In this document: in pieces, positions 11,821 to 54,718 of the stretch
Position numbering within the stretch: the stretch's first letter is position 1
Layout: every line of letters starts with the position of its first letter
Origin: Eledone cirrhosa
Taxonomy: Eukaryota
Length of the DNA: 64,000 nucleotides
Assembly (NCBI GenBank): GCA_964016885.1
Contig: OZ024740.1
Location: 377,456,001-377,520,000, forward strand
Direction: 5' to 3'
Translations under genes and position numbers: made by a program
The notes under the pieces: model-generated
Seen by the model: only the letters and a program-made list of their open reading frames with translations
What the model was told of the DNA's origin: nothing
Database searches by the model: none

Positions 11821-11885
11821 TCATTATATATATTTCAAGGATACCAAGTTAAATTATGGTATGCCTTCATCAGACAAAATACAAT
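11821..11885 (-). ncRNA. HHR-like motif, family C' (copies at 24760-24822 + and 41715-41782 +)
   Basis: TTTTGT-CTGATGA-AGGCATACCA...TGGTATCCTT-GAAA-TATA-TA-TAAT. All three copies share the ~50 bp 3' tail ending TTCCATTT(A/G)TTAATAT. Stem I is weak. Confidence 0.6.
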
Positions 11886-12839: not shown

Positions 12840-13302
12840 TTAATATTAAAATACAAATATTCATAAAATAGATGTTCTTTTGATCAATTACATTTTATTA
12901 TACATATTTCGGATATACAACAATACGTCCTCATCAGACAAAATATAATGATACATGACATACCCTGAGATGTTAAATGGTTAAGATTTAATCAAGGTAG
13001 TGATTAACCTAAGAGAAAGTTTAACATTTATACCCTAATAATGAGAAGATACGAAAACGTAATAAATTCAATAGAGAATGTGTGAGTAAGAAAAACGTGC
13101 TTAATGTATCAGTTGTAGAGATTTTAAAATGTATGATACTACAATTTATCTGGGAAAACAGTCAATGAGAGCCATTGGAATATATCATATAGCATTATAT
13201 TTTGTCTGATGAGGACGTACTGTTGTACATCCGAAATATGTATAATAAAATGTAATTGATCAAAAGAACATCTATTTTATTAATATTTATATTTTAGTAT
13301 TA
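12840..13302. mobile_element. Divergent inverted pair of HHR-bearing ~120 bp arms (HHRs at 12891-12950 - and 13193-13252 +) around a ~220 bp spacer
   Basis: TTTTGT-CTGATGA-GGACGTAC tgtt GTACATCC-GAAA-TATG-TA-TAATAAAATG and its diverged reverse complement. Confidence 0.75.
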
Positions 13303-13482: not shown

Positions 13483-13870
13483 AACATCACGGACGCTCTA
13501 TCTCAAAATTATTTTTGAAAAGCATTAGAAATGCGCCACCGGTCAAACTTAAAACCAAAACTGAATACTAACCAATACAATTACTAATTCTCACTTAATC
13601 CTAATTAAACTATTTTTCTCTGTGAACAATTTGTCAGCATTTTCTATTCCGTTTACCAATATATATATATATATATATATAAGGAATAGTATGATCCCGA
13701 CGGCAGAGCTCAAGCCGTTTCGACGGCTATTTCAGTCCAGGAATAGCCGTCGAAACGGCTTGAGCTCTGCCGTCGGGATCATACTTTTTCCTATTTCCCA
13801 CTCTACTACCCTAAGTATTGAGTACTCTGGTGCGTTATGGTCCATTTGGTTCCCTACCACAATTCCTTTG

Positions 13871-13916
<46 letters not shown>

Positions 13917-14452
13917 ATATATTGTTATACTTTGGGAGGGTCATGTTGCCAATAAGAAACACACGCACCAATTGCTTTCACTTCAATTTATTATAATAAA
14001 TTTATAAATTTAGGAATTTATAAGTTTCCGGTTGGTTGGTTCCACAACCAGATGGTTGTTTATATATTGTCAAAGTTCTTTCGTCACACATTCTGTGACC
14101 TCTTCAGTGACTCCTTTGTTCTGTCCTACGCCATCTTGTTTTTGTGTGTGACACACAAAAACAAGATGGCGTAGGACAGAACAAAGGAGAGGCACAAAAA
14201 ACAAAGAAAATAATCCCCAGTCACTGAAGAGGTCACAGAATGTGTGACGAAAGAACTTTGACAATATATAAACAACCATCTGGTTGTGGAACCAACCAAC
14301 CAACCGGAAATTTATAAATTTATTATAATAAATTGAAGTGAAAGCAACTGTTACGTGTGTTTCTTATTGGCAACATGACCCTCGCAAAGTATAACAATAT
14401 CGGTTTCAACACGTTTTCAGATAAAGAATCTTGCTAAACAAATTCAGAAACG

Positions 14453-14529: not shown

Positions 14530-14969
14530 TAGCGATATATATATATATATGAATGTATATATAGTGTATTTTGCAATACACTGTATGCTTAATTAAAACC
14601 ATTTTGAAGACCTTACGCTATTGTTTTAAAGTAGTAACTATGTCACTTCTTTTTTCCACAAACAAAGAGAGATAAGCTGTTTCATACTGTTAGTAATCCT
14701 CAGAGCTCAGCACTCCCCTTGTTTGTTGAAAATTATGAATGTTGGATTCTTATAGAATTCCAGTAATAATCAGGAACAGATTATACAGAGAAGTGTGCTA
14801 AGCTCTGAGGAATACCAACTGTATGAAACAGAGTTCTGTCAGCTTATCTCCCTTCGTTTGTTGAAAAAAGAAGTAAGTGACATAGTCACTACTTTAAAAC
14901 AATAGCGTAAGGTCTTCAAAATGCTTTTAATTAAGCATACAGTGTATTGCAAAATACACTATATATACA

Positions 14970-44811: not shown

Positions 44812-44914
<103 letters not shown>

Positions 44915-45579
44915 CGAAGGAAATGTGGTAAGGAACCAGGTGGACCATAACGCACCAAAGTACTCAATACTTAGGGTAGTAGAGTGGGTAATAGGAACAA
45001 GTAAGGCCCCGACGGCTGAGCTCAAGCCGTTTCGACGGCTAATTCTGGACTGAATTAGCCGTCGAAACGGCTTGAGCTCAGCCGTCGGGGTCTTACTTGT
45101 TCCTATATATATATATATAAATATCGTTATACTTGGGGAGGGTCATATTTGTGTAATAATATTGCCAGAATTAATAACAGAACACACTCACTGTTTGGTT
45201 GGTTTTCGCTTCTGTATCTTTTATATCGGTTAATTTAATTTATTCGGTCCTCAATGTTACCATTGACTGACCAACGGTCAAAAATACAAATATAATAGTC
45301 TAACACAAATATATAGTCTAACAAAGTTCTTTCGTTGCACATCTGCATTCCTGGTCAGATATATATTCAATTAAGGTTAATAGTATGAAATAGATAGTGC
45401 AGGTCATTCTTAAATTGAGGAATTTATGTGGAGTGGTGATACTGAAATTTATGGTTAGAGTAGAAAATTTACAAATAAAAAGACTTATCTAGGTTGGCTT
45501 GCACGTACACTCAAACCCACCTCCACAGACACACACACACACATCCACTCATACAAAATGTGGGGTGGTAATACTTAAA

Positions 45580-45775
45580 ATAATTGTTTCTACTTTAGGC
45601 ACAAGGCCAGCAATTACCCAGTGCATTACTGGTACTTTATTTTATCGACCCCGTAAGGATGAAAGGCAAAGTCAACCTCGGCGGGATTTGAACTCAGATC
45701 GTAAAGGGACGGAACTATGCTGGAAAGCATGGCGTCCGACCCTCTACCGATACTGCCAATCCACCGACCATTAAT
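45580..45775 (-). mobile_element. tRNA-derived SINE with a Nin/Deu-like domain (copies at 51468-51650 +, 60130-60347 +, decayed near 23165-23300 +)
   Basis: CTGAGTTCAAATCCCGCCGAGG..ACTTTGCCTTTCATCCTTACGGGGTCGATAAAATAAAGTACCAG is shared by the copies. Confidence 0.8.
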
Positions 45776-49243: not shown

Positions 49244-49277
<34 letters not shown>

Positions 49278-49432
49278 CGAAGGAAATGTGGTAAGGAACC
49301 AGGTGGACCATAACGCACCAAAGTACTCAATACTTGAGGTAGTAGAGTGGGTAATAGGAACCAGTAAGACCCCGACAGCTGAGCTCAAGCCGTCGAAACG
49401 GCTTGAGCTCAGCTGTCGGGGTCTTACTGGTT

Positions 49433-49476
<44 letters not shown>

Positions 49477-53402: not shown

Positions 53403-54718
53403 ATATATATATATTGGAAAATGTGTGAGATCACTTGTAGTTGTAAATAATTTGATTTAATTTTATAATATTATAATATTATAAAATTAAATCAAATTAT
53501 TTACAACTACAAGTGAAGTCATTCTTTTCCTTTTTTTTTCAAATATATATATATAGTTCTGAACTAGCTGTTGAAATGACAAGAGCTCAGCCGTCGGAGT
53601 CCCCGACTCTTTCATATTACTAGATTCTACTACTGCAAGTATCGAGTACTCTGGTGATTAATAATCTAACAGGTTTTTACTGCATACATTTTTATTTATA
53701 TATATATATGATATATGTAATTCTTGTGTACATTGACCTTAACTTACACACATGAATAGGGCGCATATATTTCCAACATCAAGAGGACTTATATTCAACG
53801 TGACACCTCCAGAAGCACCCAGTAGTATTAGCTCTTTGATAATAATGATAATAAATATGTGCATAGTGGCGTTTTTTTAACATGCACATGCTTATTCGTA
53901 AGATGGCTTTTTGGTTTTTCAGATGTTAATGGCTATGATACTTTCTTGCTCGATCATTTTATTAGTTGAACACATCATGAATATTTTAAAAGGCAGTTTA
54001 ATTCCAGTGACAACTCCTATAAATATATAATAGATTTATTTCAATAAATTTTGTAGAATACGTATTTATATCTACGATATTGTATTACCATTTATCTTAT
54101 CGGCTACAAAGATATGAATAATTTTAATCTATTTCGAAGATATTTGAAATCAGAACTTATGAGGTAGATTTTAAAGATTTTTAATCATTTCATCCTTTAT
54201 CAAACGTTTCTGCTTGTGAAATTCAAGGATTGTGTAGGCATTGCTTTTCGATAGTTTAATATAGAAAATAAAGTCTTTATCGTTTATCTTATACTGACAT
54301 TTAATATAAGGATGGAAACTTTGTAATGCTTTCCGGGGAATGAATTATGTGCTAAACTGACATCACTGGTTTCAACCATTATCTTTCAAATTAGCGAGTG
54401 AGTTGCGTTCGTGGTAATATGTGCAATTGTTCCTGTAGGTTTATTCATCAAATATCAGTATAAATGAAAATATAAAGAACAGTTAACGTTTAATCATTTA
54501 TTTGGATTGAACCCTGGTAAAACTCGTAGAGCTAGAAATAAGTTACAGTCAGTAAAAATGATGATATTACATGTTATTCAATTATGTTATTTTATGATGT
54601 TATTGGTGTGAAGGCACAGTTTCAATATTCATTTCAATGGACGCTAAGACTTGTAGGAAGAAGAAGGTAAATCATTTTCAGACAAGAGAGCTGGCCCAAA
54701 TACCAACCCCTATATGCA

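What the first reader, a model, noticed from the sequence alone, without database searches (positions are those of the whole stretch)
13682..13872. Family K palindromes fold back exactly at ribozyme hairpins
Seen: family K has the HHR 3' half (stem II strand, GAAA, stem III CGGC/GCCG, GTC, GGG) but never the CUGANGA side. At 13.7 kb and 45.0 kb the missing side is replaced by the reverse complement of the 3' half, with the apex on the same TGGACT loop (putative stem II loop). At 49.4 kb the apex is on GCCGTCGAAACGGC. At 9.2 kb the copy simply stops there. Inference: nascent cDNA snaps back on the ribozyme's own hairpin and self-primes, so ribozyme structure dictates insertion architecture.
Basis: partly seen in the sequence, partly recalled or inferred. 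Interest (0 to 1): 0.75.

Follow-up and report, generated by a model that had tools for sequence, protein, structure and literature searches.

The report
Retroelement RNA starts inside its ribozyme
These mirror-image insertions are among tens of thousands of stubs of a Penelope-like jumping gene, and the places where they stop suggest that each was likely built from two DNA copies that ran off the end of the same RNA, either at a capped start lying inside the element's self-cutting ribozyme or at the ribozyme's predicted cut site.

Summary
The palindromes are real and the breakpoints cluster, but not on ribozyme hairpins. Family K is the pLTR/ORF junction of a Hydra-type Penelope-like element (52,348 exact 24-mer hits). 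The full hammerhead exists (6,843 hits) with a U3-A8 core, not CUGANGA; TGGACT is not its stem II loop. With C17 = 0: 50 of 100 long arms end at -47..-32, none at -246..-48. The non-genomic base before A(-40) is G in 89 of 100 hits, the cap signature, so transcription likely starts inside stem II. A second class stops at the predicted cut: 25 of 50 near-site palindromes have both arms ending at +1. Each palindrome pairs two fixed 3' ends (+19, about +99). In 21 of 66 the short arm reaches further than the long, and 9 do not overlap, which one snapped-back cDNA cannot make. Best model: two target-primed cDNAs run off one RNA and are joined head to head. No RNA data were available. This scan noted cap run-off and cleavage footprints before on other DNA; my paper searches found neither in print.

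The parts
13682..13733 (-). Short arm (element -34 to about +18), inverted; 3' end in (TA)n
   Evidence: Sequence, blastn, coordinates
13734..13873 (+). Long arm (-40 to +99): begins at A(-40), the inferred capped start; 3' half of the hammerhead (C17 at 13,774) plus an 80-nt tail; 3' end in (TA)n
   Evidence: cap inference
44912..45051 (-). Long arm (+99 back to -40, or to -44 if the 4-nt overlap GAAT is counted)
45052..45105 (+). Short arm (-34 to +19), C17 at 45,086
49275..49393 (-). Long arm (+99 back to -19)
49388..49436 (+). Short arm (-29 to +19); 6-nt microhomology AGCCGT with the long arm at a hairpin that is not a hammerhead helix
9222..9355 (+). Solo long arm (-34 to +99) between (TA)n-rich repeats, no inverted partner
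53565..53656 (+). Older, 75%-identical relative of K, also beginning just 5' of the stem II 3' strand

Best explanation
Family K copies are short insertions of a Hydra-type Penelope-like retroelement, each likely made from two cDNAs primed on the two strands of a (TA)n target at two fixed internal RNA sites (+19 and about +99), run off the 5' end of the same RNA and joined head to head. The major template is inferred to be the capped transcript, which starts at A(-40) in an initiator-like TTAGTC/TCAGTC word inside the hammerhead's stem II insert. That RNA would carry only the 3' half of the ribozyme at its front, which is why the core side is missing from the stubs. A minor template is inferred to be the 3' product of self-cleavage (5' end at G+1), which needs a read-through RNA holding the whole U3-A8 hammerhead. 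Long, ORF-bearing and tandem copies need a template that continues past -40 (uncut read-through or circular RNA). SHOWN: element identity, two fixed 3' ends, the stop at -47..-32, the G excess, the paired stop at +1, non-nested arms. INFERRED: cap and start site, cleavage in vivo, priming on both strands, the joining step.
For: Element: 719-aa RT plus C-terminal GIY-YIG ORF 3' of the tail in L068, which runs on through both 'ends'. Two ends: 61 of 66 short partners end at the TTC[CA]TA word; 28,696 exact long ends joined to TATA; 50 of 50 near-site palindromes pair one long with one short arm. Hard stop: of 58 long arms that reached -32, 50 stop by -47 and 8 go past -246; 50 of 66 short arms stop in the same window. 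In 600 kb of unselected DNA, 8 of 21 long arms stop there, 0 at -246..-48, 1 beyond. Depth on contigs of two public runs rises about 20-fold across the same place. Cap: G:A = 89:11 in the first 100 of 7,011 hits, counted by eye; in 30 loci 13 G against 1 A cannot be explained by partner arm or flanking repeat; G at -40 in 8 of 11 against 20 of 97 at eight neighbouring positions, p = 0.0008. An extra G as a mark of mRNA capping is described for L1 (PMC11702581, passages). Cut site: 25 of 50 palindromes with an apex near the site have both arms at +1, out of 544 in all; of 14 long arms ending at +1 with a scored partner, 12 partners also stop at +1 or 3' of it, against 1 of 66 partners at or 3' of 0 in the general sample. 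Not nested: 21 of 66 and 9 of 66; such copies are no more diverged than the rest (2.6% against 2.5%, p = 0.16). Biochemistry of a related element: both strands nicked and extended, RT starting at two internal sites that bound the tail (PMC11167929, parts 1-2 of 4 read).
Against: No RNA evidence: the start site and the cleavage are read from DNA only. Most arms stop a few bases short of -40 or run to -44..-47, so the ends are ragged and a second start near -44 is possible. 12 of 26 G cases could come from the partner arm. No cap-derived G at -41 in extended copies: 4 G among 16 purine changes, against 35 purine changes at -42, so a retrovirus-like jump from the cap is not supported. 21 of 26 ORF-bearing 5' junctions carry the whole hammerhead upstream and only 4 start at -43..-40, so the capped RNA is rarely the template of long copies. 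Arms share subfamily sites in nearly all of 36 pairs, which fits one RNA but also fits snap-back. The hammerhead has no Rfam match, no compensatory pair change in 12 copies and weak folding z-scores (-0.66, -2.40, -1.49). In vitro, uncut RNA was the main substrate and no RNA-seq reads ended at the cut site for the lizard element. The pattern searches sample exact matches, so young copies are favoured. Target-site duplications cannot be read in (TA)n.
Confidence: 0.75

Rival explanations
1. One cDNA snaps back on a hairpin of its own and self-primes (first reader; self-priming was also proposed for Penelope junction palindromes by Arkhipova et al. 2013, on an antisense template).
For: 26 of 66 junctions have 2 or more nt of microhomology at self-complementary words. 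The 45.0 and 49.4 kb copies have 4 and 6 nt. Arms match in subfamily. PMC3846280, passages.
Against: 21 of 66 short arms reach beyond the long arm and 9 do not overlap it. 34 of 66 junctions are blunt or carry inserts. The +1/+1 class joins CCCC to GGGG across 0-9 extra bases with nothing to pair with. The short end at +19 is also the 3' end of long direct copies, so it is a start site of its own.
Confidence: 0.09
2. The folded ribozyme stalls the reverse transcriptase, and the stalled cDNAs are joined.
For: A minor peak lies next to stem III, and the major peak lies within the stem II region.
Against: The major stop lies 5' of the lower stem II strand, after that helix has been copied. A stall would thin copies out gradually, whereas 0 of 100 end in the next 199 nt. 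It gives no reason for an extra G at one base. The minor peak is at +1, the cleavage product's end, and both arms share it.
Confidence: 0.04
3. The RNA end at -40 is real but is made by processing (cleavage and recapping, or a splice-related event at the TTTAG word) and not by transcription initiation.
For: AG at -40/-39 follows a pyrimidine run and looks like a 3' splice site (sequence). No RNA data exclude it.
Against: No shared sequence lies 5' of the G in 30 loci, as a spliced exon or leader would give. The word matches an initiator (consensus recalled), and Penelope is known to start within its pLTR (PMC2377424, passages).
Confidence: 0.07
4. Longer palindromes were trimmed after insertion (cruciform cutting, deletion), or mis-assembled, and this made the clusters and the non-nested arms.
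For: Perfect palindromes are unstable (established knowledge). Some copies show internal deletions (L262, L364).
Against: Solo arms without a partner stop at the same places and some show the G. Non-nested copies are not older, and 5 of 16 have no change from a reference. DNA deletion has no reason to add G at -40 or to choose +1. Opposite-strand joints and the same depth step appear in run contigs (that run may be the assembly's own sample).
Confidence: 0.05

Closest known systems
EN+ Penelope-like elements with partial tandem, inverted 5'-truncated copy and tail (Craig et al. 2021 PMC8557442, passages and section 11; Arkhipova et al. 2013 PMC3846280, passages)
   Same: pLTR, head-to-head inverted partner, tail at one end only, junction palindromes, microsatellite target.
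   Different: The tail here is about 80 nt, not 30-40. The passages read leave the origin of the inversion open or propose self-priming. They give no breakpoint map, cap mark or cleavage mark.
Hydra clade of C-terminal EN+ PLEs (PMC8557442 section 11)
   Same: DKT, CxCX5C linker, CxxC and CxH around the EN's E and N, no CCHH, (TA)n target, single ORF of about 710-720 aa.
   Different: RWR for RWK, a 3.54-kb unit against 'generally <3 kb', and a non-canonical U3-A8 hammerhead.
Poseidon element PAc of Anolis in vitro (Frangieh et al. 2024 PMC11167929, parts 1-2 of 4)
   Same: Both target strands nicked and extended; RT starts at two internal sites at the pLTR/ORF junction that define the tail.
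   Different: No RNA ends at the cut site were found there and cleavage was dispensable in vitro. Here a class of genomic copies ends at the predicted cut, and the inferred start site lies inside the ribozyme.
PLE hammerheads, including the U3-A8 core of Schistosoma Cercyon elements (Cervera and de la Pena 2014 PMC4209133, parts 1-2 of 4)
   Same: Type I fold, short helix I, long helix II, U3-A8 core, palindromic loop 3.
   Different: K has a 4-5-bp helix III and a 33-35-nt insert in helix II that holds the inferred start site. That paper states that in vivo evidence was absent.
L1 twin priming and cap-derived extra G (Ostertag and Kazazian 2001, seen only as cited; PMC11702581, passages)
   Same: Two target ends prime two cDNAs; extra G at full-length 5' junctions.
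   Different: In L1 the two cDNAs copy adjacent, mostly non-overlapping parts from variable sites. Here both start at fixed sites and copy the same 5' stretch, giving palindromes.

Membership tests
EN+ Penelope-like element | Single ORF with RT and GIY-YIG endonuclease | tested here: met
   719-aa ORF with YRDD and a C-terminal IYQ...YIG; 2,054 relatives at E <= 1e-20 among 7,996 scored, the top hit carrying PF01541. A direct Pfam scan gave 0 families.
EN+ Penelope-like element | pLTR, partial tandems, inverted 5' copy, tail at one end | tested here: met
   L061, L062, L064, L068; tandem units about 3.54 kb apart
Hydra clade | DKT motif, CxCX5C linker, CxxC/CxH in EN, no CCHH | tested here: met
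   SDKTG, CNCPDRSIC, CNLC, CKH; one Cys in the GIY-YIG core (read by eye)
Hydra clade | RWK motif; length generally under 3 kb | tested here: inconclusive
   RWR; unit 3.54 kb
Hydra clade | (TA)n targeting | tested here: met
Hydra clade | Placement in the clade by RT phylogeny | not tested
   No tree was built
Type I hammerhead ribozyme | Canonical CUGANGA core | tested here: not met
   30 hits against 52,348; core is TTGANAA, in a minority CTGANAA
Type I hammerhead ribozyme | Core with the described U3-A8 covariation, free position 7, G10.1-C11.1, GAAA, UH | tested here: met
   6,843 hits; position 7 is G, A, T or C; variant described in PMC4209133
Type I hammerhead ribozyme | Three-helix junction | tested here: inconclusive
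   MFE fold gives it in 3 of 3 copies with weak z-scores; 92.9% of cells paired but no two-sided change in 12 close copies; no Rfam match
Type I hammerhead ribozyme | Self-cleavage 3' of C17 | not testable with these tools
   Indirect only: paired stops at +1
Non-autonomous palindromic element that spreads as a unit (MITE- or retrozyme-like) | One conserved junction shared by copies | tested here: not met
   Junctions vary across 66 pairs and across subfamilies

The most novel reading that the evidence does not exclude
The promoter's start site sits inside the hammerhead, so one sequence works as a switch. Transcripts started there carry half a ribozyme at the front, serve as mRNA and give mostly abortive run-off palindromes. 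Read-through transcripts carry the whole ribozyme, cut themselves at +1, and the unit-length products (linear or circularised) template the long tandem copies that regenerate the pLTR. The genome then holds a countable record of both RNA 5' ends and of two-strand priming.
Probability: 0.4. Interest if true: 0.72.

Novelty: new variant of a known kind. Interest (0 to 1): 0.56.

Why it matters
How Penelope-like elements make their inverted ends and tails, and whether their hammerheads cut in living cells, are stated as open in the papers read (PMC8557442, PMC4209133, PMC11167929). Thousands of copies here give base-level predictions: a capped start at A(-40), a cut at +1, and RT starts at +19 and about +99. 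Each can be tested with 5' RACE, a cleavage assay and the existing in vitro system. The element class, tail, inversion and U3-A8 core are known; the new part is the template logic.

Tried and rejected
BLAST-type search of the own genome with the K arm found nothing because common words are skipped; patterns were used instead. Rfam: only microRNA-type chance hits on the window and no match on the full ribozyme. CTGANGA upstream of the 3' half: rejected as junction products (output partly cut). Type II or III topology and a ribozyme on the other strand: no core found by eye. No RNA holder listed; this is no evidence on expression. Contigs cannot show RNA starts. Retrovirus-like strand transfer from the cap: its predicted G at -41 in extended copies is absent. 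Two different RNAs per insertion: no subfamily hybrid among 36 pairs. Covariation: none, but the 12 copies are too alike to tell. The listing (53 distinct places in the first 100 rows, counted by eye, about 22 at +1) was not used as the main count, because the pattern favours short partners. The 'short' rows include long arms matched twice and were dropped. In one search the partner search reached only 160 nt and needed the +5 region, so 34 arms scored without partner include long inversions and very short partners. Paper searches that found no account of cap-ended or cut-ended PLE stubs or of twin priming in PLEs: (listings; most subscription papers are not covered). Supplements were not read; Craig 2021 file S2 on Hydra hammerheads may bear on the ribozyme variant.

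Full report
Numbering: the predicted cleavage nucleotide C17 is 0; + is downstream on the sense strand.

1. Observation. Each palindrome has a long arm ending at about +99 and a short arm ending at about +19, both in (TA)n. The 13.7 kb long arm begins at A(-40); the 45.0 kb long arm ends at the same base; the 49.4 kb apex has a 6-nt overlap; the 9.2 kb copy starts at -34.

2. What K is. A 24-mer of K has 52,348 exact hits in the 3.0-Gb genome. [quoted passage not shown] In L068 the sequence runs through both ends into the ORF, so both ends are internal positions of the RNA. The motifs DKT, CxCX5C, CxxC and CxH, the lack of CCHH and the (TA)n target match the Hydra clade as defined in PMC8557442 section 11. 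I built no tree. The direct Pfam scan was empty; 2,054 relatives were found.

3. The ribozyme. CTGANGA upstream of the 3' half occurs 30 times. The real 5' half reads ACCCC-TTGANAA-G and has 6,843 exact hits, with position 7 free. This is the U3-A8 variant described for Schistosoma elements. Three copies fold into the type I junction, with weak z-scores. Pairs are kept in 92.9% of cells with no two-sided change, and Rfam has no match. Stem II closes a 33-35-nt insert; AGTCCA lies at its 3' side and is not the apical loop.

4. Breakpoint map. I took the first 100 of 28,696 exact long ends and mapped their 5' ends: 20 at +3..+75, 5 at 0..+2, 17 at -31..-1, 50 at -47..-32, 0 at -246..-48 and 8 beyond. 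Of 66 scored short partners, 50 end at -47..-32. In 600 kb of unselected DNA from four other contigs, 21 long arms gave 8 in that window, 0 in the gap and 1 beyond. Contig depth in two public runs steps up about 20-fold at the same place; these runs may include the assembly's own sample.

5. The stop is marked by G. The genomic base at -41 is T or C in all 30 full copies. Where it is a purine (7,011 hits), it is G in 89 of the first 100, counted by eye. In 30 loci, 13 G against 1 A are not explained by partner or repeat, while 12 G could be partner-derived. Neighbouring positions show no such excess (8 of 11 against 20 of 97, p = 0.0008; one control position cannot show G). No shared sequence lies beyond the G. 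An extra G is the described mark of a copied cap in L1, the word TTAGTC/TCAGTC fits an initiator (recalled), and Penelope starts within its pLTR. I infer a capped start at A(-40), inside the ribozyme.

6. A second stop at the cut site. Of 544 palindromes with an apex near the site, the first 50 were scored: 25 have both arms at +1 (20 with inserted bases, 5 blunt), and all 50 pair a long with a short arm. Of 30 loci with A before G(+1), 9 were point changes and 21 true ends; 14 had a scored partner, and 12 of these partners also stop at +1 or 3' of it. In the general sample 1 of 66 partners does. Both arms therefore follow one template end, which fits a self-cleaved RNA and not independent stalls.

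7. Snap-back test. A folded-back long cDNA can only yield a short arm nested in it. 21 of 66 pairs break this, 19 by more than 10 nt, and 9 do not overlap; in 7 of these 9 the short arm still ends at -37..-42. They are no older than the rest. Junctions: 26 with 2 or more nt of microhomology, 6 with one, 11 blunt, 23 with inserts. Arms agree in subfamily, so both copies come from one RNA or one source. In vitro, a related protein nicks and extends both strands from two internal sites that bound the tail.

8. Results against the simple picture. Extended copies show no cap-derived G at -41. Of 26 ORF-bearing junctions, 21 carry the whole hammerhead upstream, 1 part of it and 4 start at -43..-40; several sit in near-identical tandem arrays. 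Long copies thus come mainly from another template, read-through or circular, which I could not distinguish. No RNA run was listed. The joining step (end-joining, or an RT jump onto the other cDNA) is not resolved.

9. Known and new. The element class, inverted partner, tail, two RT start sites and U3-A8 core are in print. Self-priming was the earlier proposal for junction palindromes. My searches found no paper on cap-ended or cut-ended PLE stubs or on twin priming in PLEs. This scan noted the cap run-off model in this and other genomes and cleavage footprints of a U3-A8 Hydra element in this genome; I reached both before those look-ups, and those notes are not independent support. They also led me to PMC3846280. 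Added here: the start site lies inside the ribozyme, both template classes occur in one family, and both arms track the same RNA end.

10. Verdict. A real feature, partly misread; a new variant of a known kind. Confidence in the two-cDNA run-off model 0.75; interest 0.56.

Noticed in passing
G000 C1:91,476,616-91,487,386 (L334-L337); also C1:437.20 Mb and C2:320.55 Mb: Head-to-tail arrays of 3-4 full K units about 3.54 kb apart. Units at 91.48 Mb are 99.7-99.9% identical to each other and 97.4-98.9% to three other loci, as a rolling or repeated copy of one template would give.
   Followed up: partly
L329 (C1:27,009,515) and C2:356,030,085-356,032,022: Short tandem arrays: a 257-nt unit running from about -43 to the ORF start with the same junction twice, capped by an inverted short arm; and seven matches 299 nt apart. 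Possible small circular or jumped templates.
   Followed up: partly
L116, L173 and about a fifth of the rows: A subfamily reads C3 with A8, a mismatch that would be predicted to weaken cleavage.
   Followed up: no
L068:3375-3383: Loop III holds the palindrome TGAGCTCA, as in hammerheads proposed to cut as dimers (PMC4209133).
   Followed up: no
L231-L233 (C1:414.55 Mb) and L239: Extended copies with G at -41; one cluster of three. Could be a rare cap-derived change.
   Followed up: no
window 12,907-13,236; 14,079-14,252; 14,680-14,828; 11,833-11,873; 24,767; 41,728; 44,447; 49,715: Other repeat families with canonical CTGANGA...GAAA spacing, several as inverted pairs; at 12.9-13.2 and 14.1-14.25 kb both arms hold the whole motif.
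   Followed up: no
L097 (C1:4,720,366-4,720,545): A palindrome with two long ends instead of one long and one short.
   Followed up: no
window about 45,630-45,720: A repeat resembling a cephalopod SINE (recalled, not checked).
   Followed up: no
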